Assembly (NCBI GenBank): GCA_019310535.1
Contig: JAFDED010000013.1
Location: 3,346-67,345 of the forward strand
Length of the DNA stretch: 64,000 bases
Reading direction: 5' to 3'
From: Deltaproteobacteria bacterium
GTDB lineage: Bacteria > Desulfobacterota > JAFDED01
In this document: in pieces, positions 4,172 to 21,933 of the stretch
How the letters are laid out: every line of letters starts with the position of its first letter
How positions within the stretch are numbered: the stretch's first letter is position 1
Program-made: the position numbers and the translations under genes
Notes under the pieces: model-generated
What the model was told of the DNA's origin: nothing
The model's database searches: none
Seen by the model: the letters and a program-made list of their open reading frames with translations, nothing else

Positions 4172-4786
4172 ATGACAAAACTGTTGATTTTCGATTTCGA
4201 TGGTGTCATCGTGGATTCCCTAGCGTTTTATTTCGAAGCCTGGAGCCGCGCTATGAAGGCGTTTGGCCGGGAGGATCTGGCCGAACGAGAGGCATTTTTA
4301 TCCTTGCTGGACGGCAATTTATACGAGTCCATGAGCCGCCAGGGGATCCCCTTCCGGGCCTTCCCCGAACTCAGCAATCGAATCCAGTCAGCACTGAGGA
4401 TAAACCGCATAGTTCCTTTTCCAGGAATCCCCGAAGCCATTCAATCATTATCGCGCAATAAGTCTCTGGCCCTTGTCTCATCCAACAACTCATCCATGAT
4501 TAAAAGTCTCCTGGAACGCCACGGCATGTCGGATATTTTCGATCCCATTCTCGGCGCCGATACAGAACGGCTGAAAGGGCACAAAATCGATCTTGCCTTG
4601 GAGGCGCACAACGTGCCGGCTGTGGATAGTTTTTACATTTGCGACACGGTGGGTGACATTCGGGAAGCCCGCAGCGTGGACATTTGTGTGGCCGCCGTTA
4701 CGTGGGGATGGCACAACGCCGAGCGCCTTGCACGCGCAAAACCTGACCGAATTCTCCATTGCCCGCAGGAACTCATGGAGTTATAA
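4172..4786 (+). CDS. HAD-superfamily hydrolase (phosphoglycolate phosphatase-like)
   Basis: HAD motif I (FDFDGVIVDS), motif II (LVSSN) and motif IV (ICDTVGDI). 204 aa. Confidence 0.8.
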   Translation: MTKLLIFDFDGVIVDSLAFYFEAWSRAMKAFGREDLAEREAFLSLLDGNLYESMSRQGIPFRAFPELSNRIQSALRINRIVPFPGIPEAIQSLSRNKSLALVSSNNSSMIKSLLERHGMSDIFDPILGADTERLKGHKIDLALEAHNVPAVDSFYICDTVGDIREARSVDICVAAVTWGWHNAERLARAKPDRILHCPQELMEL

Positions 4787-4898
4787 TCAATTTTGAAGTT
4801 TTGGCAGGATAACAGGATGGACCGGATTTATTAATTCGGTTTATATCATGCGTATCCGGTTATCATGGCGGAGAATTTTTTTCAATTAAGGAACCAGA

Positions 4899-5273
4899 AT
4901 GTGGGTTCGTCATCTCCGGGATTGTCCCGTTCTCCAGGCGGGGGATGGAACCGCGCTGCGTGAACTGCTTCATCCTCATCGGCCCGAGGCCGGGGAAATC
5001 CCCGTGGGGTTCAGCCTGGCCCACGCCCGGCTGGCACCGGGAGGATGTTCTCGGCCCCATCGGTTGCTCCAGTCCTCTGAAGTTTATTATATCCTGGAAG
5101 GCCGAGGGATAATGCACGTGGAGAACCAGCAGTACAACGTGGAACCCGGGCACGCCGTTTATATTCCCCCCGGCGCTCTTCAATGGATTGAGAATATCGG
5201 CAGTGGGGATCTGGGGTTTTTGGCCTTGGTGGACCCTCCATGGCGGCAAGAGGATGAAAAAATTCCAGGATAA
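4899..5273 (+). CDS. cupin domain protein
   Basis: 124-aa ORF with the cupin_2 pattern (PHRLLQSSEVYYILEGRG ... PGHAVYIPPGALQWIENIG). Confidence 0.7.
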   Translation: MWVRHLRDCPVLQAGDGTALRELLHPHRPEAGEIPVGFSLAHARLAPGGCSRPHRLLQSSEVYYILEGRGIMHVENQQYNVEPGHAVYIPPGALQWIENIGSGDLGFLALVDPPWRQEDEKIPG

Positions 5274-5486
5274 GCGGGAGATGGAGTAGCGCCATTTCCT
5301 GTTTTATTGAACAGCGAAAGAAAATCCCTCACATCCCCGGGGGAAAAGATCGAATAGATATCAAGCCACGCCGGAGAAACTCTTCTAGATTTGCAATATT
5401 GAAACACCGGAGAAGCTTACCCACCGAAAAAGAACGGGCACCACTCTCAAGCTTTGCGCACATCCACCGCCGCACAAAACAATAAC

Positions 5487-7484
5487 TCAAGTACTGCCGT
5501 TAGCTGTGTCCTTTTGCAGGGCCAACTCAATCTCTGTCTTTGTCACCAAGGGGCCCTGGAGCCTTTGAATCGGAACACTGCCCCCAATAATCATGTCGCC
5601 GTGGCCGATAAGATATTCGGCCCCGGTCTGGTCTAAGATAATAGAGCTGTTGCTTGCGGTGGTTACTTTGAGCGCCACTTTTAGCTGCAGGTTTGCCTTG
5701 ATGATAGGTGTCACCACCCTGGCATCAGGCCTCTGGGTGGCGAGGATAAGATGTATGCCCGCCGCCCGTCCCTTTTGTCCGAGACGCTGGATGGATAACT
5801 CCAGTTTCTCCCTGGTAGTTTTGCCACTGATAAGATCGGCGTATTCATCGATCATGACCACCTGGCGGCTCAAGGTTTCGGCACGCTGATTATAGGCGCT
5901 GATATCGGGCGCTCTCATTTTTTCAAACAATCGATACCGTTTCTCCATCTCATCGACGAGTTGAGAGAGTTTTTCCATTGCGGGGTCATTGTCCATCAGC
6001 ACCGGGCCTGACAGATGCGGTAACGACGTGAGATCAGTAAAGGTGATACGTTTGGAGTCAATCAGTGTGATCCGGACGTCTTCAGGTTTTGCGTTAAGGG
6101 CCAGACCAATGGCCGCAGACCTGAGAAAAACACTTTTCCCGCTTCCTGCTGTGCCTCCCACCAGCATGCTCGTCATTGTCGGATCGCTCAGATCGGCCCA
6201 GACAATCGAGCCGTCAATTGACATGCCAATGGGAAACGCAACCTTGGAGTGGGGCCTGTTTCGCTGTCCTTTTCGCCAGACTTCTCCCAATGTCAACGGA
6301 ATCCTGACCTTCCGCGGAACATCAACGCTGACGTAGCCTGCTTGAGGCTGAATTAATGGAGCAACGTGCAACCTCAACGCCACCTGCAGGTTTTCTGCCT
6401 GATTCATTAATTTCCTGACGGTAACACCTTGATCGAGCAGGGGTTTTATCTTTAATCGAATAAATCTCGGCCCGGCTGTATACCCGGAGGGCTCAACGGG
6501 CAACCTCAGGGCTTGGAGGGCATTAACAAGAGAAGCCATGCCTTTTTCTGCTTCTTTAAACGCCTCTTTTGTTTCATGATCGGGCGTGGTTGAGATTTCC
6601 TGGATGCGGGGGCCCCACTCCCCATCGCATTGCGGATCAAAGGGACAAACAGCGCATAGTTGCAAATCAGGAGCGGGCGGCAACGATTTTTTTTGTTTTT
6701 TGGAAACAGCCTCCATGACATCGATGACCCGGCGAAAAAGGTCAGGGAGATTTTGCATGGCACAAGTGATATCTTCCGACGAATAGCGGACTTCGGGTTC
6801 TTCTTCCTCCAGGTAAAAGATCACCCCGCGCGGGGTAATGCCGGTTTTTGTTTTGATCAACCAGCAGTAAAGCACAATCTGCAAAAAATCCTCCTCCGCA
6901 TAACCCGCCTTACGCCCTTTGAATTCCATAACAACCGCCTCACCCGATGCCGCATCAAACAGCAGCGCGTCGTACTTGCCAATGACACGAAACGTCTCAC
7001 CGTCTCCCAGATCGTACACGCTCTTGATTAATTCTTCAGGGTTGTGAAATGTTTTTGCCGGCAAAGTATCGATGTCACCCCTTTGCTCCAGTAAAGCCTT
7101 GCGTAGAAATTGAGCAAGGTGCCGATTCCACAGCTCAAGAGCACGACCCAGTTGCATCACCTGGTCTGCGCTTAATTTTTTGCTCTGCCGCTTTACGACG
7201 GGTAAAAAGAAGTGTTCCTCCAGCAGAGCCAGCAGACCCATTTCCAGGTTTTCTCCGGGGCCGATTAAAAGCGCCTTGAGACGTTGACGGACGGCGGGAC
7301 TGGAGCCGGAGGCCATCATCTTATGAAAGGGAGCGGCGATTTGATCATGAAATAACGTCCCGGGCAGAACGCCCGTCCCGGCAAGTCCTATTTTCCAGGC
7401 GTTTCTGCGGCCGCGCAATTGATAGGCGAGCAATCTCGGACAGCGCTGAAGCAAATGAATCTGGGAAACATTAGCTTTGTGCAT
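5487..7484 (-). CDS. Cas4/RecB-like PD-(D/E)xK Fe-S nuclease fused to an FtsK/SpoIIIE-type DNA translocase ATPase
   Basis: Residues 1-290 carry a Cas4-type motif set: C15 (LLQRCPRLL), D172 (IGKYDALLFD), E187-x-K189 (VVMEFKG), QxxxY (LQIVLY) and CX2CX5C (CAVCPFDPQC). Residues ~330-650 are a collinear FtsK motor: the beta-domain-like segment FIRLKIKP...VSVDVPRK, Walker A GGTAGSGKS (nt 6132-6158), Walker B VVMIDEYADL and LILATQRP. No TM helices and no gamma (KOPS) domain are evident. The start overlaps the upstream gene by 14 nt. Confidence 0.85.
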   Translation of the reverse strand: MHKANVSQIHLLQRCPRLLAYQLRGRRNAWKIGLAGTGVLPGTLFHDQIAAPFHKMMASGSSPAVRQRLKALLIGPGENLEMGLLALLEEHFFLPVVKRQSKKLSADQVMQLGRALELWNRHLAQFLRKALLEQRGDIDTLPAKTFHNPEELIKSVYDLGDGETFRVIGKYDALLFDAASGEAVVMEFKGRKAGYAEEDFLQIVLYCWLIKTKTGITPRGVIFYLEEEEPEVRYSSEDITCAMQNLPDLFRRVIDVMEAVSKKQKKSLPPAPDLQLCAVCPFDPQCDGEWGPRIQEISTTPDHETKEAFKEAEKGMASLVNALQALRLPVEPSGYTAGPRFIRLKIKPLLDQGVTVRKLMNQAENLQVALRLHVAPLIQPQAGYVSVDVPRKVRIPLTLGEVWRKGQRNRPHSKVAFPIGMSIDGSIVWADLSDPTMTSMLVGGTAGSGKSVFLRSAAIGLALNAKPEDVRITLIDSKRITFTDLTSLPHLSGPVLMDNDPAMEKLSQLVDEMEKRYRLFEKMRAPDISAYNQRAETLSRQVVMIDEYADLISGKTTREKLELSIQRLGQKGRAAGIHLILATQRPDARVVTPIIKANLQLKVALKVTTASNSSIILDQTGAEYLIGHGDMIIGGSVPIQRLQGPLVTKTEIELALQKDTANGST

Positions 7485-9588
7485 GAACCCAACTCTTCTT
7501 TAACATGATTAAGACCCCGTCTTTGGACGGTATGACCTCAAAACGATCCCTAAAATTGCCAATGACCGTAAGCATCCTTTCCAGGTCTATGGAAATTCCG
7601 GATTGAATCAACGATTCGACAAGCTTTTGAGAAGTTACCATCATCATGGGCACCGGGCGAAGAATCTCCACCGCCTTTTGGACAACACGGTTATCATCCA
7701 CTGAAGGGCGACTGTGCCGGAAGCTTCTCTGTCCTGTTCCGGAAGGCGTTGCCATGGCCTCATCAAGAATTTGAAATCCTGGATACCGGCCCCCGTGAAG
7801 GCCATCCCGAAGAAAGCCGGCCAGCTCATCGATAGAAACGGGCCTTATACGATTATTGGCGTCGATGATCGTTACATCGTATGAATTAACAGCGTATTTG
7901 AGTAATTCAAGGGCATACCATGTTGCGACTTGCTCATGGTCAAGAAAGATAACATGACCTCCACGTTTTTTGAAATCATGAAGTATTTTGTTTGTAGCCT
8001 GCCACCTGGGAGGGGACGGGAAGGGGCAGCGTTTATCCCTGATATAATAAGCTCTTCCGGAAGCATGGCTTTCCAGAAAGACTATGCCTCTTTTAAGAGC
8101 GGCACTCACGGACGAATGGTGTCGTTCAATATCTATAATAAAGACAGCGGGAACGGGCGGAGAACCTGAGAACTTGATCTTACATTCGAAATCAACATAT
8201 TTTTCCTTGCCCCCAGGACGTCTTAACGATTCGATTTCATATCCGCTTCTGAATGGATTGTTGGTGAGATAAAGCTCCAGAGCGCCTCGCAATCTGGCGC
8301 GATCGGGTTGATAGCGGTCAAGATCGGTCAGGATTATCTCATATTTACTTTCAAACTCATCTTTTATTTTTTCAATGGGGGAGACTGCAGCCGGGCTCTC
8401 ATCAAGTATTTGACTCAATCGTCCGTTGGCCAGCGTGATAACCATCCTTGGACTGTTAAAACTGGTTTTAAAAGTCTTAATTAAATCGTCTTTATCAAAT
8501 GGGAATAAATCGTCAGCCTGATTTTCTCCAAAGACGAATTCCAGGCGGCTCCGAATGATCTCCAGAACTTGCTCCTTAGTACATCCTTTAAGCTGAAACA
8601 TGTTTCCTTCGAGCCTTTGTATTACGTGCACGTTTAATTTCTTTTTAAACGTCTCTTCCCATTGTTGTCCTCTGAAGAAAGCAAGGGGGAGCATTGCTTT
8701 TGCTTCATTCACCAAAAATTCAACCATTTTTCCTAATGCTTTTACCTGCTCGTCCGTTACTAAATTCTCCAATTGATCGAAACAGACAATGAGTGGTTGG
8801 CCGTAACGTGCCAGCAAAAGGCCCAGGGAGATCAGTATATCGTGGGATCGTTGCTCCAGGGCAGCCGCGGAATCATGCAGGCGATCACGCACCTGGAGCA
8901 ATGCGGTGTCCTCTTCATCAAGAACAACACCTTTCAGCCAGCTCACAGCGGCAAACCTTTTCTCCCTGATGCGATATTGAAATAAAACCTTCAGAAACTC
9001 TTTGTCGATCTCGGGGAATTGTTTCATTATCAGTTCGGTGGATTTTGTTTGCATAAGATCAAATGCGTCAGGATGAATTCTTGCCCTGAAAATATATGTT
9101 GGATATTCTCGAAGTTTACCGAGGATGTTTGTAAATTTTTCATCCCTGGTAGAATTATATATTTTTTCGATTAACTCTCTGAAGATTTTACCTAACATTA
9201 CATCAAGCTGAGTGGCGTCAAAAGCCTTTTCTATGGGGCGGCAGAGATTAACCATCACTTCGCGCAGGAGATAGCGATAGGTCTGTTCAGGGTCTTCAAT
9301 AGGCTGAATATACGCGAAAGAAAAGGGAGATTTACCGTGCTTGCCGTAATCCAGTATTCTGCCGATGAGGTGTGTCTTGCCACTGCCCGCTTCTCCGAGA
9401 ACCAGTCCAGCAAAGCGGTCAGCAGGATCTCGTGTTTTTTGACCAATAAGCCGGCAGAGTCCCTCGAAAGCATGTTTATTGATTGAGGTCACATCCAGAT
9501 ATTTTCCCGCCCATGGGTCGCCAGCACTGTTAGAAGCAAAGGGATTTTTCTCCTTTAAGATATCAAGCTTTTCATGAGCTTTCATCAT
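7471..9588 (-). CDS. large P-loop NTPase (AAA/ORC-like) of unknown function
   Basis: 705-aa ORF. Walker A GEAGSGKT (nt 9373-9396) and a Walker B-like LIVCFDQLE about 195 aa downstream. The ~270-aa C-terminal region is unassigned. ATGA overlap with the upstream gene. Visibly AT-rich. Confidence 0.8.
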   Translation of the reverse strand: MMKAHEKLDILKEKNPFASNSAGDPWAGKYLDVTSINKHAFEGLCRLIGQKTRDPADRFAGLVLGEAGSGKTHLIGRILDYGKHGKSPFSFAYIQPIEDPEQTYRYLLREVMVNLCRPIEKAFDATQLDVMLGKIFRELIEKIYNSTRDEKFTNILGKLREYPTYIFRARIHPDAFDLMQTKSTELIMKQFPEIDKEFLKVLFQYRIREKRFAAVSWLKGVVLDEEDTALLQVRDRLHDSAAALEQRSHDILISLGLLLARYGQPLIVCFDQLENLVTDEQVKALGKMVEFLVNEAKAMLPLAFFRGQQWEETFKKKLNVHVIQRLEGNMFQLKGCTKEQVLEIIRSRLEFVFGENQADDLFPFDKDDLIKTFKTSFNSPRMVITLANGRLSQILDESPAAVSPIEKIKDEFESKYEIILTDLDRYQPDRARLRGALELYLTNNPFRSGYEIESLRRPGGKEKYVDFECKIKFSGSPPVPAVFIIDIERHHSSVSAALKRGIVFLESHASGRAYYIRDKRCPFPSPPRWQATNKILHDFKKRGGHVIFLDHEQVATWYALELLKYAVNSYDVTIIDANNRIRPVSIDELAGFLRDGLHGGRYPGFQILDEAMATPSGTGQRSFRHSRPSVDDNRVVQKAVEILRPVPMMMVTSQKLVESLIQSGISIDLERMLTVIGNFRDRFEVIPSKDGVLIMLKKSWVHAQS

Positions 9589-10301
9589 TCATGCCCCCAC
9601 CAGGTCATAGTAAGGTAAAGAATGCCGTTTTCGCCCATAAAAGAATCTTGAATTTCTTTTTCAGTCATTATAGAAGGATCTCCAGTATGGAGTTCAATGG
9701 TATAATCCGCCATCAAATCGGTCAAAACACCATCAAATCGATCCCTGGGCCATTGTAAAAATTCCCGTATTCGATGAATGCGAACAAAACTCCGCCCCTT
9801 GCCAACGTTATCATAGGCTTTTTTGAATGCAGCGCGGTCTGCGGCAGGCCCAACTTTCGGTGCTGTCGGTAGCGGGACTTTATCGGTTATTCTCAGTGAT
9901 GGGGTATGATATTCATTGAAGGTGCAGATAACGGAACCTGATTTCAACAGCTCATTAAGGAGAGAAATGTAAGTCTTTTTAATCATGGGAATATTCTTTC
10001 CCGCCTGTTTTGAGGACAAACCGGGATTTTGTTTGATTTTATTAAAAATGATTTCTTCCAGGGGCATTTTGAAGCCGATATAAGTGGACCTTCCCTTATA
10101 ATCTTGTAATCTACTACCGAAATGAGGCTTAAGTCTTTTAAGCACGGCTGTCGAAGACGATTTTCTCGTAAGACCGCAATGCTTCAATGAATCAGCGGGG
10201 AGCCCCTGTCTAACTTGTGCAACCGTGAGGTAGTCCTGTTTTGTCTTTTTTAAAAGTTTTGAAATTTGCTCTTCAATGTTCGTCAGATCGTCTTTTCCCA
10301 T
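9585..10301 (-). CDS. hypothetical protein, first gene of the three-gene operon (possible winged-helix/DNA-binding; unassigned)
   Basis: 238-aa lysine-rich ORF with a strong AAGGAG Shine-Dalgarno 8 nt upstream of the ATG. Its stop overlaps the next start (ATGA). I recognise no motif. Confidence 0.65.
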   Translation of the reverse strand: MGKDDLTNIEEQISKLLKKTKQDYLTVAQVRQGLPADSLKHCGLTRKSSSTAVLKRLKPHFGSRLQDYKGRSTYIGFKMPLEEIIFNKIKQNPGLSSKQAGKNIPMIKKTYISLLNELLKSGSVICTFNEYHTPSLRITDKVPLPTAPKVGPAADRAAFKKAYDNVGKGRSFVRIHRIREFLQWPRDRFDGVLTDLMADYTIELHTGDPSIMTEKEIQDSFMGENGILYLTMTWWGHE

Positions 10302-10407
10302 GAATGATTCTCCTTGAACCCCTGATTAATGGAAAACGGCTTTCCAGGGCGCTTTAATGCGTGTAGCCTCATTCCGAAGGGCTTGTGCACGTTGCATCCC
10401 GGCACTT

Positions 10408-11388
10408 CTAACCGCGAAAAGCATCAGGATTCACCAGATTGGGCGGCCGTTTTCCTTCCAGCGCCGCCAAAAGGTTTTCCGCAGCCATGAGAGCCATCTT
10501 TTCTCTGGTCTCTCGAGTGGCGCTTCCGATGTGGGGGGTCAAGACCACGTTTGGCAGCTCCCCAAGCCCCGGTGTCAGGTGAGGTTCATTCTCATATACA
10601 TCCAGGGCCGCCCCCGCAATGGCACCATCCCGAAGGGCGCTGAGCAAAGCCGCTTCATCCACCACCATGCCCCTGGATGCATTTATGAGAAAAGAGGTCG
10701 GCTTCATCATTGACAATTGGGGCGAGCCGATAAGGTGCCGCGTATCGGGTGAACTCGGCACATGAAGGGTGACAAAGTCAGCCTCTCGCAAGAGTGTTTC
10801 GAAATTTACGTACGCGGCCTTCAATTCCCGCTCCAAAGAAGGTTCGACGCGTTTCCTGTTGTAATAGATGATCCTCATGCCGAATCCCTGGGCTCGTCGT
10901 GCCACAGATGACCCGATGCGCCCCATGCCGACGATCCCCAGGGTCTTGCCATACACGTCGGTTCCCAGGAAACAATTAAAAGGCCACTTATCCCGGTCCT
11001 TTTCACGGATAAATCGATCCGATTCCACTACACGGCGCGCAACAGCCATGATGAGTGCCCAGGTGAGATCGGCAGTTGTCTCCGTAAGGACCCCCGGCGT
11101 ATTGCATACCAGTATGCCTCTGGCCGTGGCTGCGGGCACGTCGATGTTGTCATAGCCCACAGCATAATTGGCCACAACCCTCAGGCGTGGCGCCGTGTCC
11201 ATGACCTGCCGGTCGATGCGGTCGGAGTGACAGGTTAATATTCCCTCAGCCTTCCACACGTGGCCCAACAAACTCTCATGGGGAAGGCATTCTTCCACGG
11301 GGTCGGCAACCAGATCGCAGCGGGCGCGTATCATCTCTATGGCACTAACCGGTACACCGCACGTTACCAGCGCTTTCCATCTTTGCAT
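10408..11388 (-). CDS. D-isomer-specific 2-hydroxyacid dehydrogenase (glyoxylate/hydroxypyruvate reductase-like)
   Basis: NAD-binding GIVGMGRIGSSVARR, plus the catalytic-region motifs SRG...VDE and LTPHIGSAT. The ORF opens at 11439, but ATG 11388 follows AAGGAGGAC and gives a typical ~326 aa. Confidence 0.9.
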   Translation of the reverse strand: MQRWKALVTCGVPVSAIEMIRARCDLVADPVEECLPHESLLGHVWKAEGILTCHSDRIDRQVMDTAPRLRVVANYAVGYDNIDVPAATARGILVCNTPGVLTETTADLTWALIMAVARRVVESDRFIREKDRDKWPFNCFLGTDVYGKTLGIVGMGRIGSSVARRAQGFGMRIIYYNRKRVEPSLERELKAAYVNFETLLREADFVTLHVPSSPDTRHLIGSPQLSMMKPTSFLINASRGMVVDEAALLSALRDGAIAGAALDVYENEPHLTPGLGELPNVVLTPHIGSATRETREKMALMAAENLLAALEGKRPPNLVNPDAFRG

Positions 11389-17193: not shown

Positions 17194-19383
17194 ATGTTAA
17201 GATTTATATTGAAGGAAAATGATGGGAAGGAACGAGTAATTATTATTGAGAAGGATGTTGTACGGATCGGCAAATCCGAGGCAAATGACCTGATACTTTC
17301 ACAGCCCGGTGTCTCAAGGCGCCATGCTATTGTGAGACGCACCGGAGGCAAAGTCGTTATAGAGGATCTGGTCAGCACCAATGGCACTTTCGTCAACGGC
17401 AAACGCATCTCCGCTCCCCAGGAATTAAACATCGGCGATCTTGTCTTTATATCCGGCTATACTCTTCAACTGGATATGTTCTCCTCCGTTGAAGAACCCA
17501 CTCAGTCCATCGAACGGGAAGAAGCGGAAAAGCCCGCGCATCGGGCGCCGGGAGAGGAGGAGAAACCCACACTGGAGGCGACGACGGCCGATAGCGGCAT
17601 TGGTGGAGAAGATATGGAGGAGCCTTCGAGGGAGCCTCTGGACGAAGGGGTTAAGACCTTCGGCATTCCAAGACAGGAAATGGAAGAATGGGCGAAACCC
17701 GGGGAGGAGGAAGATGGTTTAAAACCGCAGGAAGAGCCTATTCTTAAGGATACATTCGAGAAACCCCTCCAGGAGGAAGCCGAGACAGCATCCCTGAAAG
17801 AAGGGGCTCCAGAGCGCGAGCTTATCGAGGAGGAAGAAATTCCATTCATCCCCCTGCGTGAGGAAGACATGTTAGATGCCCAGGTTCCAGAGCCGCAGCA
17901 AATGCAATGGGAGGATACCCTTGATACGCTGGAAAGTCCCCTGAAGAGAGAAGAAGTCAGGGAAGAGGAAGAGAAACCCGATCTTGTTGAAGAGCAAGCA
18001 GCCACCGTTTCCCTGCCTGAAGAAAGTGTGAAGCAGGAGGCTCTCGAGGAGATGGTTTCCACCGAGTTCGAAGCACTCAGCCCCGCCGTTTCCCCACCGA
18101 AAGAAGATGCCCCGTTGGAAGAAGATATGGGAAGGGTGGCAAGCCGTATTTATCGGCACCTTCTGGATCAACCCGAGTTATATTGGCGTTTTCTGGAGCC
18201 CGGCCAGGATGTCAGCAACAGACAGATAGCCTTCCTGCATGCGATCAGGAGCCTGATGGACGATATGGGTCTTGAGATTCCTCCCCATATCCCCCGGGAA
18301 GAACTGAGTCAGCGCATGATGGAAGAGGCAGTGCTGCCGGGAATCGTGGAGCAATTGATGGCCGATCCCGATAATCGCTCCATTATGATAAACGGAAAAG
18401 AGCGGGTATTTATTGAACGGGGCGGAAAGATGGAGCGAACAGAGTTTCGCTTCAGTTGCGACGATGCGGTGATGGCGGTTGCCTCCTGGATGCTGATGCG
18501 GGTTGGGAAACACATAGATTCCTCCAATCCCATTGTGGACGCCCGGTTGGAAAATGGGGCGGAAATCCATGTTATAATCCCTCCAATGGCCTTTTCCGGC
18601 CCCTGCCTGACCATTCGAAAGCCGGGAGGTCTGCTGTTTACTATGGCCGATCTGGTCGAAAAGGAATCTTTGTCCAAGGATATGGCTCAATTATTAAAAA
18701 TTAGCGTTGAGAACGGTATGAACATCCTGATTACCGGGACTCAAGGGTCCGGTAAAACCACTCTCCTCATGGCGCTGGCCTCTCTCATCCCGGAAGAAGA
18801 GCGCGTTATCACCATTGAGGATTGGCCCGAACTCAGTCTTCCACAGGAGAACGTTGTGAGCCTTCTCACCTGTCCCCCGGAGGTCAGTGGTCAGGGCGGG
18901 GTCACAGTCATGGATCTGGTGCGCAGCTCGTTGAAGATGCGGCCGGATAGGGTGGTGCTGGGGGGGTGCTCGAGCGAAGAAGTGATTGAGATTTTTCAGG
19001 CCGGCCGCGGCGGTATCCGGGGATTGCTGGCGGCCGTCCATGTAAACTCACCCCGCCAAGCCTTAGTTCAGTTGAACCTGTCCGCGGGCCTCGGCACGAA
19101 CCTTTCCGTCATGCTCCCCTGGATCGCCTCTATGGTGGACCTCATCGTCCAATGCGTTCAGATGTCTGATGGAAGGCGAAAGGTGACCAGAATCTGCGAG
19201 GTTGCTGACTCTGGTGACGAGCCCTTTACCTTGCGCGATATCTTTCGGTTTGAGTCCAGCGGATTCGATAAGGAGACCAGCTTTCTGGGAAGTTTTGTCC
19301 CCCAGAATGTGGTTCCCCGTTTTATTCAAGATTTGGAGATGCGCGGAGTGCCCGTGGAACGAGAAATGTTTCAGAAGCTTTAA
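17194..19383 (+). CDS. FHA domain / acidic low-complexity linker / CpaF(TadA)-type secretion ATPase fusion
   Basis: N-terminal FHA domain (VVRIGKSEANDLIL...VSRRHA...STNGTFVNG). A Glu-rich linker of ~210 aa (nt ~17482-18123). A C-terminal domain collinear with CpaF/VirB11-class ATPases (Walker A GTQGSGKTT; TIEDWPEL; RPDRVVLGG). Confidence 0.9.
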   Translation: MLRFILKENDGKERVIIIEKDVVRIGKSEANDLILSQPGVSRRHAIVRRTGGKVVIEDLVSTNGTFVNGKRISAPQELNIGDLVFISGYTLQLDMFSSVEEPTQSIEREEAEKPAHRAPGEEEKPTLEATTADSGIGGEDMEEPSREPLDEGVKTFGIPRQEMEEWAKPGEEEDGLKPQEEPILKDTFEKPLQEEAETASLKEGAPERELIEEEEIPFIPLREEDMLDAQVPEPQQMQWEDTLDTLESPLKREEVREEEEKPDLVEEQAATVSLPEESVKQEALEEMVSTEFEALSPAVSPPKEDAPLEEDMGRVASRIYRHLLDQPELYWRFLEPGQDVSNRQIAFLHAIRSLMDDMGLEIPPHIPREELSQRMMEEAVLPGIVEQLMADPDNRSIMINGKERVFIERGGKMERTEFRFSCDDAVMAVASWMLMRVGKHIDSSNPIVDARLENGAEIHVIIPPMAFSGPCLTIRKPGGLLFTMADLVEKESLSKDMAQLLKISVENGMNILITGTQGSGKTTLLMALASLIPEEERVITIEDWPELSLPQENVVSLLTCPPEVSGQGGVTVMDLVRSSLKMRPDRVVLGGCSSEEVIEIFQAGRGGIRGLLAAVHVNSPRQALVQLNLSAGLGTNLSVMLPWIASMVDLIVQCVQMSDGRRKVTRICEVADSGDEPFTLRDIFRFESSGFDKETSFLGSFVPQNVVPRFIQDLEMRGVPVEREMFQKL

Positions 19384-19479: not shown

Positions 19480-21933
19480 TCAATCGTTTCCGGAACCTCC
19501 ACTATCAGGAAGATTGAATCCAAGTCGCTCGCCCAGAATAAAAAAGGGCTTCCACTCAGGCAGGCTGGCAGGGTGTGCATGAACATGCCATTTTGAGTTC
19601 AATAATTGTCGAAAAATATTTTGCGCCTCCCACAGATTGATCTGTATTTCAACCTGATCCGCCAGATCCAATAACTGCATTATGGCAGGAATCTGTTTCG
19701 CTTCTGGATATAGGGCCAACGTCCGGAGCTTTTTCTCCAGCATGTGGCGAATCTTCCGCTCAATGACCTCTTCTTTTGGATCGATGCCCCAAAGGTCGGC
19801 TTCCTGCATGATCCGGGTAATATCTTCGGCAGGCTCTCCCTGGAGGGCTTTATCCAGAGCTTCCATAAGATCTGCCTTCAGTGCATTCTGTGCGGCGGCA
19901 GTGAAACCTACGGGAATCGGCACATCAATTTCTTTCAGGAAACGCATTAAATCACGATTTTCATTATAAAGCATCCTGTAACTTGACTCAAAGCGACTGA
20001 GAGCGTCTTCGCTCATCCGTAGCGCGATCTTACGGCGCTCCTCCAGGAAAAGGTCTCCCAAAGTCATGTATTCTCTTCCGAACATCTTGTCCATTGTTCG
20101 GATAAGTTCTGTCATGTCCGACTGTTCAAACTTGGAGACCAGATTTTGCGCCAACTCCTCCCACTGCAGTTCAGCGTTGTGAGCAAGAAGGGAGCATCTA
20201 AAATCGCAACCTCCGGAATGGAGCAGGGCGAAAACAAAGCGACCCTCCTCTTCTGTGGTTGTACAGACGGCGCTGACCTGACCCACCGCCAGGGTGTCAG
20301 GCCCTCGGGAACTCTGAAGGTAGTTTTCCCGGTCTATTCTGAAGCAGTAAATCCTGTCTTTTTCTTCGTACTCTTCAAAAAGAGAACTTATGGCGTAATG
20401 GGAGATGACGCGCTCCAGGTTTACCACCGAGGGTTTCACTACTCGCCGATAAATGTCCGTCCCATCACCTAGCTGCGGCATGTTGCTTCGGGCCGAGGAT
20501 AACCGGGAAAGAAACCCTTCCTCTAGATCCACGCCCGTTGCCTGTGCGGCCAACTGGATGGCCCTGGCCGCATATTTGAGGTTCTGGACCGCCTCCAGCC
20601 CCGAGATGTCGTCGAAAAACCATCCGCAACTGGCGAACATCAACATTCCGTTCCTCTGCATTTCCATGAGATGAAGCAGGAGTATGCGATCAGCTTGTGA
20701 GGCACTGGAGAAAGCATACTCTGCAATAAACCGCTCCACACTCTCCGACCTTCGGTCCAGAATAACATGGATGTAAGCATTACGGGCATTCCAGGGATCG
20801 GGCAGGAGTTCTCCGGCCCGTTTCTCATAAGTTTCATCCAGGCGCAACTTGAGCCAATCGAGGGCTTCCCGCAGCGGAGATCTCCAGGCCTGATTCCAAT
20901 GTGGGTCCGTTCCCACCCGACACCCGCAATCCGCTCGCCAGCGCTCTACCCCGTGAGCGCAGCTCCAACTGGTGCTTTCGAATATCTCTACTTCCCAATG
21001 GGGGGGATGATGAGCCAGGAACTCGGCGTAGTTGGTGATGAGAATCTCCCCTTCCGCGGAGAGGTGATTCATGGCATACGCCAGGGCCATTTCTCCAAAG
21101 CGGTGATGGTGGCCGTAAGTTTCTCCATCCGTGGCGATATGAACAAGTTGATCCTCTGAATTGTCCGGCTGGAAGTGCTGCTTGATAGTACCAATAAACT
21201 CATCGCCGCTGTTCAGGACTTGTTCAAACGCCACGGCATGTGACAAGTCGGCATTGTAAAAGAATAAGTTAATGGTACGCCCGCTGCTTAGGGCTAGACG
21301 GTAACACCTCCCCGGATCGACGCGGCCGCCATCCACGTTTTTCCATGGTCCTGTAGACAGCGAACGGACTCTATGGGCCTGATGGGGTGCAAGAATCGTG
21401 AATTGTATGCCCTGTTCAGCGAGCACATCAAGGGTTTCAAGATCGACAGCGGTTTCCGGCAGCCACATCCCCTCGGGGTCACGCCCAAACCTGTGCCGAA
21501 AATCCCGTATCCCCCATATTACCTGGGTTTCTTTGTCGTGCCGGGATGCCAGCGGCATAATCTGATGGTTGTAAACCTGGGCTAGGGCATTACCGTGGCC
21601 ACCCCGAGCCTGCCGGCTAACCCTGTCCGACTCAAGGATCCGACTGTACACTTCGCTTGCATTGGTCTCCATCCAAGCCAGGAGTGTGGGACCGAAATTG
21701 AAGCTTATCAAATCATAATTGCTGAAGATCTGGAGAATCCGGTTCTGTTCGTCGAGGATGCGGGCCGCGCTATTGGGCGCGTAACATTCCGCCGTAACCC
21801 GTTCATTCCAGTCGTGGTGAGGATGGGCTGAGTCCTGGACCTCGATCGCTTCAAGCCAGGGATTCTCCCTTGAGGGTTGATAGAAATGTCCGTGTATGCA
21901 CAGATAGCGCTTCATCAATAGCTGTTCCGACAA
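19480..21933 (-). CDS. glycoside hydrolase family 57 protein with a long C-terminal extension (DUF3536-like)
   Basis: GH57 N-terminal signature (CIHGHFYQPSRENPW; WLPETAV; TDGETYGHH). 817 aa. Confidence 0.88.
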   Translation of the reverse strand: MSEQLLMKRYLCIHGHFYQPSRENPWLEAIEVQDSAHPHHDWNERVTAECYAPNSAARILDEQNRILQIFSNYDLISFNFGPTLLAWMETNASEVYSRILESDRVSRQARGGHGNALAQVYNHQIMPLASRHDKETQVIWGIRDFRHRFGRDPEGMWLPETAVDLETLDVLAEQGIQFTILAPHQAHRVRSLSTGPWKNVDGGRVDPGRCYRLALSSGRTINLFFYNADLSHAVAFEQVLNSGDEFIGTIKQHFQPDNSEDQLVHIATDGETYGHHHRFGEMALAYAMNHLSAEGEILITNYAEFLAHHPPHWEVEIFESTSWSCAHGVERWRADCGCRVGTDPHWNQAWRSPLREALDWLKLRLDETYEKRAGELLPDPWNARNAYIHVILDRRSESVERFIAEYAFSSASQADRILLLHLMEMQRNGMLMFASCGWFFDDISGLEAVQNLKYAARAIQLAAQATGVDLEEGFLSRLSSARSNMPQLGDGTDIYRRVVKPSVVNLERVISHYAISSLFEEYEEKDRIYCFRIDRENYLQSSRGPDTLAVGQVSAVCTTTEEEGRFVFALLHSGGCDFRCSLLAHNAELQWEELAQNLVSKFEQSDMTELIRTMDKMFGREYMTLGDLFLEERRKIALRMSEDALSRFESSYRMLYNENRDLMRFLKEIDVPIPVGFTAAAQNALKADLMEALDKALQGEPAEDITRIMQEADLWGIDPKEEVIERKIRHMLEKKLRTLALYPEAKQIPAIMQLLDLADQVEIQINLWEAQNIFRQLLNSKWHVHAHPASLPEWKPFFILGERLGFNLPDSGGSGND

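What the first reader, a model, noticed from the sequence alone, without database searches (positions are those of the whole stretch)
5487..7484. Single polypeptide combining a Cas4-type 4Fe-4S PD-(D/E)xK nuclease with a soluble FtsK/SpoIIIE motor
All diagnostic Cas4/AddB-type elements can be read directly from the translation. They are an N-terminal Cys (C15, nt 7440-7442), D172 (nt 6969-6971), E187-x-K189 (nt 6918-6926), the QxxxY motif (Q202-Y206) and a C-terminal CX2CX5C (C277, C280, C286; nt 6627-6656). After a ~40-aa linker there is a complete FtsK alpha/beta motor (Walker A nt 6132-6158, Walker B VVMIDEY, LILATQRP). The protein has no membrane anchor and no gamma wHTH domain, so it is not a divisome FtsK. 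A hexameric dsDNA pump carrying a nuclease on each subunit would be a processive DNA-destroying or end-processing machine. I do not recall this architecture being characterised.
Basis: partly seen in the sequence, partly recalled or inferred. Interest (0 to 1): 0.78.

Follow-up and report, generated by a model that had tools for sequence, protein, structure and literature searches.

The report
Nuclease-tipped FtsK DNA pump defence cassette
The gene really does encode a soluble FtsK-type DNA pump fused to a Cas4-like iron-sulfur nuclease, but it is the last gene of a conserved three-gene cassette that was predicted in 2024, from sequence alone, to be an anti-invader 'FtsK capture' system and has not been tested experimentally in any paper I could find.

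Summary
ORF 5487-7484(-) encodes 665 aa with three parts. The N-terminal part is a PD-(D/E)xK nuclease of the Cas4/Dna2/AddB type. D172, K189, Q202, Y206, C277 and C280 are invariant in 43 homologues of 41-71% identity; C15, E187 and C286 are kept in 42 of 43. A disordered linker follows, then a complete FtsK alpha+beta motor that superposes on the E. coli and P. aeruginosa FtsK motors (TM about 0.8). There is no membrane segment and no gamma domain.

The gene ends an overlapping three-gene operon:
- A (9585-10301): a fast-evolving, probably winged-helix protein.
- B (7471-9588): an Orc/Cdc6-STAND class AAA+ ATPase with a restriction-endonuclease-like insert.
- C: the nuclease-FtsK protein.

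B sits directly upstream of C in 28 of 29 related loci across at least six phyla. The flanking genes differ, A and B have low GC, and in some lineages B is fused directly to the FtsK motor. The cassette matches the 'Orc/Cdc6 + REase + FtsK-alpha/FtsK + multi-wHTH' capture systems predicted in NAR 2024 (PMC10853773), down to the cyanobacterial 3'-5' exonuclease variant.

I found no experimental work on it. Verdict: real, a new member of a predicted but uncharacterised kind. The Fe-S (Cas4-type) nature of the nuclease is not mentioned in that paper's main text (the words Cas4 and RecB are absent).

The parts
9585..10301 (-). Gene A: 238-aa first gene of the operon. It evolves fast and is probably a multi-winged-helix DNA-binding or specificity subunit.
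   Evidence: The stop overlaps the start of B. There are no Pfam, PADLOC, NCBIfam or PHROG hits. 40 homologues were found, one of them named 'winged helix-turn-helix domain-containing protein' by NCBI. The profile gives only weak, non-significant PDB matches to wHTH proteins (Z-alpha, DDRGK1, MarR) for residues 75-145. hhalign links it to the equivalent upstream ORFs of distant cassettes (probability 92%, E 5e-7). Its fold was not modelled.
7471..9588 (-). Gene B: 705-aa Orc/Cdc6-STAND class AAA+ ATPase. It carries a restriction-endonuclease-like insert and a C-terminal wHTH-like domain. Predicted role: sensor, loader or switch.
   Evidence: Pfam gives weak AAA_16, KAP and NACHT P-loop hits. 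The AlphaFold model has pLDDT 88.4 and pTM 0.81. The best PDB fold match is archaeal Cdc6 (1FNN, E 3.5e-5), followed by ORC4, TnsC, BrxC and NLR resistosomes. B lies directly upstream of C in 28 of 29 related loci.
9373..9396 (-). B Walker A (G65-T72, GEAGSGKT).
   Evidence: G65, G68, G70, K71 and T72 are invariant in 42 homologues. The Walker B-like D271-x-L-E274 is also invariant.
7879..8256 (-). B restriction-endonuclease-like alpha/beta domain (about residues 445-570), inserted before the C-terminal wHTH.
   Evidence: The model shows a beta-beta-beta-alpha-beta core at residues 450-518. D466 is kept in 41 of 42 homologues, D486 in 42 of 42 and E488 in 33 of 42. R517, D518 and R520 are invariant. 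There is no Lys at the canonical position. PMC10853773 calls the equivalent domain an inactive REase. No domain-level fold search was run.
7474..7701 (-). B C-terminal wHTH-like domain (about residues 630-705).
   Evidence: The model shows a helix-helix-strand-helix-helix-strand-strand pattern after a disordered loop at 619-628. This segment is missing in the 590-660 aa paralogues and in the B::FtsK fusions.
5487..7484 (-). Gene C: 665-aa nuclease-FtsK fusion, the finding itself. Predicted effector.
6615..7484 (-). C N-terminal Cas4/Dna2/AddB-type PD-(D/E)xK nuclease domain (residues 1-290). Motifs: C15, D172, E187-x-K189, Q202-x3-Y206 and C277-x2-C280-x5-C286.
   Evidence: Pfam PDDEXK_1 and Cas_Cas4; PADLOC Cas4; near-total motif conservation; fold hits to Dna2 and ACE1.
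6582..6614 (-). Flexible linker (residues 291-301).
   Evidence: pLDDT is below 50 for residues 295-300. A pTM of 0.57 despite pLDDT 90.9 indicates that the relative orientation of the two halves is undefined.
6315..6581 (-). FtsK alpha domain (residues 302-390).
   Evidence: Pfam FtsK_alpha over 292-390, covering profile positions 2-100 of 101. It superposes together with the beta domain on 2IUS and 6T8O.
5505..6314 (-). FtsK beta (RecA-like) motor domain (residues 391-660). Motifs: Walker A 444-451, Walker B D546-E547, R573 and TQRP 583-586.
   Evidence: Pfam FtsK_SpoIIIE E 1.3e-34. PADLOC SspH C-terminal module E 5.7e-65. The motifs are invariant.
10302..10407 (-). Intergenic region upstream of gene A; presumed promoter and RBS of the operon.
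   Evidence: A GGAG-type RBS (aaggagaatcattcATG) is visible. No consensus sigma-70 promoter was called there, so the promoter is inferred only.

Best explanation
The ORF is the effector of a horizontally acquired three-gene anti-invader (restriction-like) cassette. The cassette belongs to the computationally predicted 'HerA/FtsK capture' class that is coupled to Orc/Cdc6-type ATPases.

Shown here:
- C is a soluble FtsK alpha/beta motor with an intact ATPase site.
- The motor is tethered by a flexible linker to a Cas4/Dna2-type nuclease with an intact D..ExK/QxxxY site and four conserved cluster cysteines.
- C is always encoded with B, an Orc/Cdc6-STAND class AAA+ ATPase carrying a REase-like insert and a wHTH.
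- The cassette also includes A, a small and rapidly diverging protein.

Inferred mechanism:
1. A and the wHTH and REase-like domains of B recognise invader DNA, or a DNA structure typical of injected, replicating or transferring elements.
2. ATP-dependent oligomerisation of B recruits C and templates its hexamer on duplex DNA. This replaces the membrane and gamma-domain loading used by cellular FtsK.
3. The C hexamer pumps dsDNA, and its ring of six tethered Fe-S nucleases cuts the DNA at or near the pore. Cuts are probably made at ends or on unwound strands, as with Cas4, AddB and Dna2. The result is processive degradation of the captured DNA.

The cassette encodes no methyltransferase. Self/non-self discrimination therefore has to come from recognition by A and B or from DNA topology or ends, not from a cassette-encoded modification.
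For: Domain identity and intact catalytic residues.

Operon structure: the stop and start codons overlap.

Gene order A-B-C is conserved in Desulfobacterota, Synergistota, Cyanobacteriota, Planctomycetota, Verrucomicrobiota, Acidobacteriota and Proteobacteria, with unrelated flanking genes.

Rosetta-stone fusions B(1-644)::FtsK(304-669) occur in three lineages (L006, L020, L028). These argue that B and the motor interact physically.

B is of the Cdc6/ORC/TnsC/BrxC/NLR fold class.

Hallmarks of mobile defence genes:
- A and B have 43-46% GC against 53-59% in the flanks.
- Distribution is patchy.
- Desulfobacterales HSG2 carries tandem paralogous A/B copies (L008).
- A diverges fast.
- On the Pseudanabaena plasmid the cassette sits next to a DEAD/DEAH helicase-SWIM pair.

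The motor is most similar to the FtsK module of the proven defence protein SspH (5.7e-65; SspFGH protects against phages, PMC8092258).

The architecture matches the published prediction point by point, including the 3'-5' exonuclease variant (PMC10853773).

A characterised analogue exists: DUF4297-HerA is a hexameric HerA-family ATPase that activates a stacked nuclease for anti-phage dsDNA cleavage (PMC11291478).
Against: - There is no experimental evidence for defence by this family. PADLOC v2 has no model for the system as such.
- In this window the cassette is not in a recognisable defence island. Its neighbours are housekeeping genes, including the DNA-repair genes radA and ligA.
- No modification gene or other obvious self-protection device is present.
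- The wHTH nature of A is unproven.
- The domain arrangement in the hexamer is unknown (pTM 0.57).
- Some relatives lack the Cas4-type nuclease altogether (B::FtsK fusions), and a distant clade lacks the cluster cysteines. So neither the nuclease nor the Fe-S cluster is universally essential to the module.
Confidence: 0.6

Rival explanations
1. A DNA double-strand-break end-resection or recombination machine for the host's own genome. It would be a fused bacterial analogue of archaeal HerA-NurA or of AddAB/Dna2. In this reading the FtsK ring threads a broken end and the Cas4/AddB-like nuclease resects it, while B acts as loader.
For: Cas4, AddB and Dna2 nucleases are end-processing enzymes (established knowledge), and Dna2 is the best fold hit for the N-terminal domain. 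HerA-NurA appears among the structural neighbours. In this window the cassette lies between radA and ligA. No self/non-self marker is encoded.
Against: The flanking genes differ in every other genome, so the linkage to radA and ligA is not conserved. A repair function does not fit the other features: patchy distribution across many phyla, low GC for A and B, tandem paralogues (L008), a rapidly evolving A subunit, nuclease-less and exonuclease-bearing variants, and closest motor similarity to SspH. These are typical of conflict systems rather than core repair.
Confidence: 0.15
2. A component of a mobile genetic element's own DNA-processing and transfer apparatus. It would be an FtsK/TraB/TcpA-like coupling or segregation pump with an end-processing nuclease, serving the element rather than the host.
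For: The FtsK-family conjugation coupling protein TcpA is the next structural neighbour after FtsK (E about 1e-20). One full-length homologue sits on a conjugative 329-kb cyanobacterial plasmid. PMC10853773 describes these neighbourhoods as 'mobile'.
Against: There is no integrase, relaxase, T4SS, replication or capsid gene next to the cassette, either here or in the related loci examined. Only 1 of 72,556 plasmids and 0 of 50,697 phage records carry the full architecture. The NCBIfam TraB model scores 17 bits against a cut-off of 800. No flanking direct or inverted repeats longer than chance were found.
Confidence: 0.07
3. An NLR-like abortive-infection or programmed-cell-death device. On sensing infection, the STAND-like B oligomerises and unleashes C on the cell's own chromosome. 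The host DNA is shredded, sacrificing the infected cell for clonal neighbours in filaments or aggregates.
For: B shows NACHT/STAND-like features: Walker B D-x-h-E, and weak NACHT, NPHP3_N and nSTAND hits. It has NLR resistosomes among its fold neighbours. Homologues occur in many multicellular or filamentous bacteria: cable bacteria, multicellular magnetotactic prokaryotes, Desulfonema and heterocystous cyanobacteria. No self-protection gene is present. The characterised DUF4297-HerA system acts through abortive infection (PMC11291478).
Against: This is a variant of the best explanation rather than a true alternative. Nothing here distinguishes a host target from an invader target. The enrichment in multicellular taxa was not tested statistically. 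A and the wHTH and REase-like domains of B suggest recognition of DNA rather than of a phage protein.
Confidence: 0.15

Closest known systems
Orc/Cdc6-coupled 'HerA/FtsK capture systems' predicted by comparative genomics (Nucleic Acids Res 2024;52:1005, PMC10853773; restated in PMC12839542)
   Same: The component list is the same. It comprises an Orc/Cdc6-class AAA+ ATPase with a REase-like domain inserted before a C-terminal wHTH, an active PD-(D/E)xK nuclease, and an FtsK motor that retains the FtsK-alpha domain otherwise seen only in cellular FtsK and clade-2 DndH. It also has an extra, rapidly evolving multi-wHTH gene, and variants with a 3'-5' exonuclease fused to the FtsK component. All of these were seen here.
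   Different: The main text of that paper does not use the words Cas4 or RecB, so the four-cysteine Fe-S-type nature of the nuclease is apparently not noted there. I could not check the accession lists, because the relevant supplement is not held. Membership therefore rests on architecture, not on a shared identifier. The class itself is a prediction without experiments.
DndFGH / SspFGH restriction modules (DndH/SspH C-terminal FtsK-type domain)
   Same: All are three-gene, ATP-dependent, nuclease-bearing defence modules. The large subunit ends in an FtsK-type motor preceded by a PD-(D/E)xK nuclease. The motor here scores 5.7e-65 against the SspH model. SspFGH is experimentally protective (PMC8092258).
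   Different: DndH and SspH are about 1,700 aa and carry SWI2/SNF2-C, TRD and inactive-methylase domains that are absent here. B and A give no PADLOC hits to DndF/G or SspF/G. No phosphorothioation genes are nearby. The nuclease here is Cas4-like rather than type-II-REase-like.
DUF4297-HerA and Sir2-HerA anti-phage complexes; archaeal HerA-NurA
   Same: A hexameric HerA/FtsK-superfamily dsDNA translocase is physically coupled to a nuclease effector, so that DNA passing through the ring is cleaved. Assembly activates both enzymes (PMC11291478). These complexes are structural neighbours.
   Different: Those systems use separate polypeptides and the HerA branch of the superfamily, not the FtsK alpha/beta branch. 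Their nucleases (DUF4297, NurA) are of other families. They have no Orc/Cdc6 partner and no Fe-S cluster.
Cas4 (CRISPR adaptation), AddB and Dna2 nuclease domains
   Same: The motif set is the same: one N-terminal Cys plus C-x2-C-x5-C, D..ExK and QxxxY. Pfam Cas_Cas4 scores above its gathering cut-off. Fold hits go to Dna2 and the Cas4-family protein ACE1.
   Different: The score is below the TIGR00372 equivalog cut-off (43.5 against 65 bits). No CRISPR array was found in the window, and no cas gene was found among the cassette neighbours and larger ORFs scanned. The motor partner is an FtsK ring instead of an SF1 helicase (AddAB, Dna2).
Cellular FtsK/SpoIIIE
   Same: The alpha+beta motor shares 31-32% identity with the E. 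coli and P. aeruginosa FtsK motors and superposes with target TM about 0.8. All ATPase motifs are present.
   Different: There is no N-terminal membrane domain, no long linker and no gamma (KOPS-reading wHTH) domain. NF007615 scores 174 bits against a cut-off of 1566. The genomic context is different.

Membership tests
Cas4 family (PF01930 / TIGR00372) | RecB-type PD-(D/E)xK catalytic motifs (D, ExK, QxxxY) | tested here: met
   D172, E187-x-K189 and Q202-x3-Y206 are present. They are invariant or kept in 42 of 43 homologues.
Cas4 family (PF01930 / TIGR00372) | Four cluster-ligating cysteines (one N-terminal, C-x2-C-x5-C C-terminal) | tested here: met
   C15, C277, C280 and C286 are conserved in 42-43 of 43 homologues. 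They are also kept in the cyanobacterial clade but lost in a distant clade.
Cas4 family (PF01930 / TIGR00372) | Score above the curated family cut-offs | tested here: inconclusive
   Pfam PF01930 scores 25.7 bits, above its cut-off of 22.7. The TIGR00372 equivalog scores 43.5 bits, below its cut-off of 65. The domain is therefore Cas4-like but not an equivalog of CRISPR Cas4.
Cas4 family (PF01930 / TIGR00372) | Association with cas1/cas2 and a CRISPR array | tested here: not met
   No tandem or CRISPR-like array exists in the 64-kb window. None of the neighbours or larger ORFs scanned is a cas gene; the small ORFs of the rest of the window were not scanned.
Cas4 family (PF01930 / TIGR00372) | A bound Fe-S cluster | not testable with these tools
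   This needs UV-vis or EPR spectroscopy of anaerobically purified protein.
Cellular FtsK/SpoIIIE DNA translocase | Alpha+beta motor with Walker A/B, arginine finger and sensor Q | tested here: met
Cellular FtsK/SpoIIIE DNA translocase | N-terminal membrane anchor targeting the septum | tested here: not met
   The maximum Kyte-Doolittle 19-residue score is 1.12, and the N-terminus is the nuclease domain.
Cellular FtsK/SpoIIIE DNA translocase | C-terminal gamma wHTH (KOPS/SRS recognition, XerD activation) | tested here: not met
   There is no FtsK_gamma hit at E <= 0.01. The protein ends about 25 aa after the beta domain, as do its homologues.
Cellular FtsK/SpoIIIE DNA translocase | NCBIfam equivalog score | tested here: not met
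   NF007615 scores 173.8 bits against a cut-off of 1566.
Orc/Cdc6-coupled HerA/FtsK capture system (PMC10853773) | Adjacent Orc/Cdc6-family AAA+ ATPase | tested here: met
   For the B model, the best PDB fold hit is Cdc6 (1FNN, E 3.5e-5), followed by ORC4, Orc1 and TnsC. B is adjacent to C in 28 of 29 loci.
Orc/Cdc6-coupled HerA/FtsK capture system (PMC10853773) | REase-like domain inserted between the AAA+ core and the C-terminal wHTH of the ATPase | tested here: inconclusive
   The model shows a beta-beta-beta-alpha-beta module at 450-518 with conserved D466, D486 and E488, followed by a wHTH-like tail. No domain-level structure or profile match was obtained. Catalytic competence is unknown.
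Orc/Cdc6-coupled HerA/FtsK capture system (PMC10853773) | Active PD-(D/E)xK nuclease plus an FtsK motor that retains the FtsK-alpha domain | tested here: met
Orc/Cdc6-coupled HerA/FtsK capture system (PMC10853773) | Extra gene for a rapidly evolving multi-wHTH (DndG/SspB-like) protein | tested here: inconclusive
   Gene A is present and evolves fast. Only weak wHTH hints were found. No DndG or SspB match appears in PADLOC. The fold was not modelled.
Orc/Cdc6-coupled HerA/FtsK capture system (PMC10853773) | Anti-invader function | not testable with these tools
   This is a prediction only. No experimental paper was found.
DndFGH / SspFGH | DndH/SspH multidomain core (SWI2/SNF2-C, TRDs, inactive methylase) and DndF/G or SspF/G partners | tested here: not met
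   Only the C-terminal FtsK module of the SspH models is matched (profile positions 1445-1737 of 1766). A and B have no Dnd or Ssp hits.
Conjugative coupling protein (TraB/TcpA type) | Family-level score and linkage to relaxase or T4SS genes | tested here: not met
   NF041214 TraB scores 17.3 bits against a cut-off of 800. No transfer genes are nearby. Only 1 of 72,556 plasmids has the architecture.

The most novel reading that the evidence does not exclude
B may be an NLR/STAND-like sensor whose ligand-triggered oligomer templates the FtsK hexamer. The cassette would then be a 'resistosome that assembles a DNA shredder'.

In this reading, self is spared without any modification, for two reasons:
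1. The Cas4/Dna2-type Fe-S nuclease needs free DNA ends.
2. The fast-evolving wHTH protein A replaces the lost gamma domain as a reader of host-specific polar sequence motifs. These motifs would act like KOPS or Chi and stop or disarm the motor on the chromosome.

This would be a new principle of self/non-self discrimination for a motor-nuclease system. It may be tied to clonal multicellular lifestyles.
Probability: 0.12. Interest if true: 0.8.

Novelty: new member of a known kind. Interest (0 to 1): 0.45.

Why it matters
If the prediction holds, this would be a compact defence effector in which a very fast dsDNA pump (FtsK) carries its own ring of nucleases. An Orc/Cdc6-STAND ATPase would control it in place of a methyltransferase.

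Testing it would address three questions:
- How can an FtsK motor be loaded on DNA without a membrane anchor or a gamma domain?
- What does the Fe-S cluster of Cas4-like nucleases contribute outside CRISPR and AddAB?
- How does a modification-free motor-nuclease avoid the host chromosome?

The family is small and well defined, and the window copy has every catalytic residue intact. That makes it a good candidate for the first experimental test of the 'FtsK capture' class.

Tried and rejected
- A single-sequence search of the N-terminal 296 aa against PDB sequences found nothing, even at E <= 10. The fold assignment therefore rests on Pfam, PADLOC and NCBIfam profiles and on Foldseek with the model.
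- A profile of gene A against PDB sequences gave only noise and weak wHTH hints. hhalign between the three segments of A found no internal repeat. The 'triple wHTH' reading of A is therefore unproven.
- PHROG and NCBIfam gave nothing for A or B.
- Iyer et al. 2004 (PMC521647) is not held. The supplement of PMC10853773 with accession lists and trees is not held in usable form. I therefore could not confirm that these exact proteins are in that paper's dataset.
- I looked for mobile-element boundaries around 4700-10700. Only short, chance-level repeats were found, and promoter and terminator counts were no higher than in shuffled sequence.
- The divisome FtsK reading is rejected (no anchor, no gamma domain). 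So are a CRISPR Cas4 (no array in the window, no cas gene among the ORFs scanned) and a conjugative coupling protein (no transfer genes; essentially absent from plasmids).
Cys-Cys distances and the position of the nuclease relative to the pore could not be measured.


Full report

Yes. ORF 5487-7484 on the minus strand is open, starts with ATG and encodes 665 residues.

Profile searches confirm the domains independently:
- Pfam PDDEXK_1 matches residues 5-287 end to end (profile 3-247 of 247, E 1.4e-11).
- Cas_Cas4 matches 178-286 at 25.7 bits, above its cut-off of 22.7.
- FtsK_alpha matches 292-390.
- FtsK_SpoIIIE matches 401-586 (E 1.3e-34).
- PADLOC Cas4 models give 4e-12, and NCBIfam TIGR00372 gives 3e-11. 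The latter score, 43.5 bits, is below the equivalog cut-off of 65.

I aligned 43 homologues of 41-71% identity. D172, K189, Q202, Y206, C277 and C280 are invariant, as are K450, D546, E547, R573 and Q584. C15, E187 and C286 are kept in 42 of 43.

An AlphaFold model built on that alignment has pLDDT 90.9. Its C-terminal half superposes on the E. coli and P. aeruginosa FtsK motor structures (2IUS, 2IUT, 6T8O; E 1e-32 to 1e-29, target TM about 0.8, 31-32% identity). Its N-terminal half finds the Dna2 nuclease (5EAN, E 2e-8) and the Cas4-family protein ACE1 (9IAB, E 1e-6).

Other structural points:
- Residues 295-300 are disordered, and pTM is only 0.57. The two halves are therefore joined by a flexible tether.
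- There is no hydrophobic segment (maximum Kyte-Doolittle 19-residue score 1.12).
- There is no gamma domain. No hit was found, and the chain ends about 25 residues after the beta domain, as in the homologues.

**2. What surrounds it?**

The gene is the last of three minus-strand genes whose stop and start codons overlap:
- A: 9585-10301, 238 aa.
- B: 7471-9588, 705 aa.
- C: 5487-7484.

The flanking genes are ordinary housekeeping genes. On one side lie radA, a GHL-family hydrolase, a cytidylyltransferase, a HAD phosphatase and a convergent cupin. On the other lie a D-2-hydroxyacid dehydrogenase and ligA. Genes A and B have 43-46% GC against 53-59% in the flanks. No CRISPR array exists in the window, and no cas gene was found among the ORFs I scanned.

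*Gene B.* It has only weak P-loop hits in Pfam (AAA_16, KAP, NACHT). Its model is confident (pLDDT 88.4, pTM 0.81). The best PDB fold match is archaeal Cdc6 (1FNN, E 3.5e-5), followed by ORC4/Orc1, TnsC, BrxC and plant NLR resistosomes. It is therefore an Orc/Cdc6-STAND class AAA+ ATPase.
- Walker A (G65-T72) and a NACHT-like Walker B (D271-x-L-E274) are invariant.
- After the AAA+ and helical modules, the model shows a beta-beta-beta-alpha-beta module at 450-518.
- In that module D466 is kept in 41 of 42 homologues, D486 in 42 of 42 and E488 in 33 of 42. R517, D518 and R520 are invariant, but there is no canonical Lys.
- A disordered loop follows, then a wHTH-like tail at about 630-705.

*Gene A.* It has no family hit in any library. 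Its homologues are about 50% identical even among close relatives. The evidence for winged helices is thin: one NCBI name, and non-significant PDB-sequence matches of residues 75-145 to Z-alpha, DDRGK1 and MarR.

**3. Is the cassette conserved?**

Yes, strongly. Look-ups of homologues and a scan of one genome per species returned the same order A-B-C with unrelated neighbours in:
- Desulfococcaceae, Desulfobacterales and Desulfohalobiaceae;
- cable bacteria (Ca. Electrothrix);
- Synergistaceae and Fretibacterium.

More distant versions (29-35% identity) occur in:
- heterocystous cyanobacteria and a Pseudanabaena plasmid;
- Verrucomicrobiota;
- Acidobacteriota (Bryobacterales, Thermoanaerobaculia);
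- alpha-, gamma- and deltaproteobacteria.

A B homologue lies directly upstream of the nuclease-FtsK gene in 28 of the 29 loci that have upstream sequence. In Synergistaceae the two are separated by one inserted 470-aa ORF. Wherever sequence is available, a same-strand ORF of 240-410 aa precedes B. These distant upstream ORFs fall below ordinary HMM detection, but a profile-profile comparison links them to A (probability 92%, E 5e-7).

Informative variants:
- In cyanobacteria, C carries an additional N-terminal 3'-5' exonuclease (PF01612).
- In three lineages, B (profile positions 1-644) is fused directly to the FtsK alpha/beta motor (positions 304-669). These fusions lack the Cas4-like domain and B's wHTH tail (L006, L020, L028).
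- The distant clade keeps D..ExK and QxxxY but has lost all four cysteines.
- One Desulfobacterales genome has a tandem array of A and B paralogues around the cassette (L008).

The nuclease domain itself is a narrow family. Only 111 clusters at 50% identity, out of 1.84 billion representatives, match at E <= 1e-3. The full architecture occurs on 1 of 72,556 plasmids and in none of 50,697 phage records.

**4. What is it, and how does it most likely work?**

The combination has the signature of a conflict (defence) system, not of core DNA metabolism:
- tight operonic linkage;
- Rosetta-stone fusions;
- patchy distribution across phyla;
- deviant GC;
- tandem paralogues;
- a fast-evolving small subunit;
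- modular swapping of effector domains.

The motor resembles the FtsK module of SspH more strongly (5.7e-65, 218 bits over 293 profile positions) than any other library model. SspFGH is an experimentally proven anti-phage module (PMC8092258).

My best explanation has one part that is shown and three steps that are inferred.
- Shown: the intact active sites, the domain order, the gene linkage and the B-motor fusions.
- Inferred, step 1: A and the wHTH and REase-like domains of B recognise invader DNA or a characteristic DNA structure.
- Inferred, step 2: ATP-dependent oligomerisation of B recruits C and templates its hexamer on duplex DNA. This substitutes for the membrane, linker and gamma-domain loading of cellular FtsK.
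- Inferred, step 3: the hexamer pumps dsDNA past six flexibly tethered Fe-S nucleases, which degrade it. Cleavage probably starts at ends or on frayed strands, as is established for Cas4, AddB and Dna2.

A characterised analogue is DUF4297-HerA. There, assembly of a hexameric HerA-family ATPase with a stacked nuclease activates both enzymes for anti-phage dsDNA cleavage (PMC11291478). The cassette encodes no methyltransferase. How the host chromosome is spared is therefore unknown.

Rivals I could not exclude:
- a host DSB end-resection machine (0.15);
- an abortive-infection device that shreds the host chromosome (0.15; really a variant of the main model);
- a function for a mobile element itself (0.07).

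**5. Comparison with what is known.**

The cassette corresponds point by point to a class predicted by comparative genomics in 2024. That paper describes 'mobile gene neighbourhoods' in which HerA/FtsK domains are coupled to a specific Orc/CDC6 AAA+ ATPase (PMC10853773). The shared features are:
- a REase domain, described there as inactive, inserted before the ATPase's C-terminal wHTH;
- an active REase;
- in one subset, an FtsK-alpha-bearing motor captured from cellular FtsK;
- an optional, rapidly evolving 2-4-wHTH protein;
- in some systems, a 3'-5' exonuclease fused to the FtsK component.

The same authors restated the idea in 2026, describing DNA being 'captured and channelled toward associated nucleases' (PMC12839542).

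Neither paper reports experiments, and my searches found none. The 2024 main text contains neither 'Cas4' nor 'RecB'. The Cys4/Fe-S character of this nuclease therefore appears to be an addition, as does its loss in a sister clade. I could not check that paper's accession lists.

The protein is not a member of any of the following:
- cellular FtsK: no anchor, no gamma domain, and 174 bits against a cut-off of 1566;
- CRISPR Cas4: below the equivalog cut-off, and no CRISPR context;
- DndH/SspH: only the motor is shared;
- TraB/TcpA coupling proteins.

**6. Verdict.**

Novelty: a new member of a known, predicted and uncharacterised kind. Interest is moderate (0.45). A specialist in defence systems would recognise the class. 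Even so, a soluble FtsK pump with a tethered Fe-S nuclease under Orc/Cdc6-STAND control is mechanistically attractive and entirely untested. This copy has every catalytic residue intact.

Noticed in passing
L006 8001-11027; L020 1231-4293; L028 5138-8047: These are natural fusions of the Orc/Cdc6-like protein B (profile positions 1-644) directly to the FtsK alpha/beta motor. They lack both the Cas4-like nuclease and B's wHTH tail. In these variants the only nuclease-like module left in the fusion protein is B's REase-like insert. That raises the question of whether the insert is really inactive.
   Followed up: partly
window 7879-8256 (B residues about 445-570): The REase-like insert of B is called 'inactive' in the literature. 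It nevertheless keeps D466 (41 of 42), D486 (42 of 42) and E488 (33 of 42), plus an invariant R517-D518-x-R520. A D..DxE arrangement without Lys recalls BamHI-type sites (from my own knowledge). Catalytic competence cannot be excluded.
   Followed up: partly
L022, L023, L024, L030 (alignment A4): A distant clade of nuclease-FtsK proteins (Acidobacteriota, Verrucomicrobiota, Proteobacteria) keeps D..ExK and QxxxY but has lost all four cluster cysteines. The Fe-S cluster is therefore dispensable for the module in some lineages.
   Followed up: yes
L004 8001-10550 and P0101-P0120: The cyanobacterial versions (about 850 aa) add an N-terminal DEDD 3'-5' exonuclease (PF01612) in front of the Cas4-like domain. 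One FtsK motor then carries two nucleases of opposite polarity.
   Followed up: partly
L008 1106-14425 (Desulfobacterales bacterium HSG2): This locus has a tandem array: B, an A fragment, a 407-aa A variant with an extra N-terminal region (P0240; weak DEK_C and R.Pab1 hits), B, C, and then a further A plus a 777-aa B paralogue. It looks like local duplication and diversification of the sensor genes.
   Followed up: no
L013 5164-6576; L014 (Synergistaceae): A 470-aa ORF with no Pfam hit is inserted between B and C, followed by a short A-like fragment (L013 6577-6942). It may be an additional component.
   Followed up: no
(taxon names of homologues): Many homologues come from multicellular or filamentous bacteria: Ca. 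Electrothrix cable bacteria, Ca. Magnetoglobus and Magnetomorum, Desulfonema, and heterocystous cyanobacteria. The enrichment was not tested statistically.
   Followed up: no
(B homologues of 587-660 aa): A large set of B paralogues covers only about 87% of the query and lacks the C-terminal wHTH tail. Their genomic partners were not examined. They may belong to other Orc/Cdc6-centred systems.
   Followed up: no
L088 247-3429 (Pseudanabaena plasmid pPSE7367.01): The only plasmid-borne cassette sits divergently next to a DEAD/DEAH helicase and SWIM zinc-finger gene pair. This may be another conflict-type module.
   Followed up: no
window 17194-19383: A 729-aa protein combines an N-terminal FHA domain with a T2SSE-type secretion ATPase. 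The region just upstream (16.5-17.5 kb) dips to 42% GC.
   Followed up: no
window 45742-47856: A 704-aa multihaem cytochrome c (NapC/NirT, c3 and c7 domains). It fits a Desulfobacterota-like host, as does the GH57/DUF3536 protein at 19480-21933.
   Followed up: no
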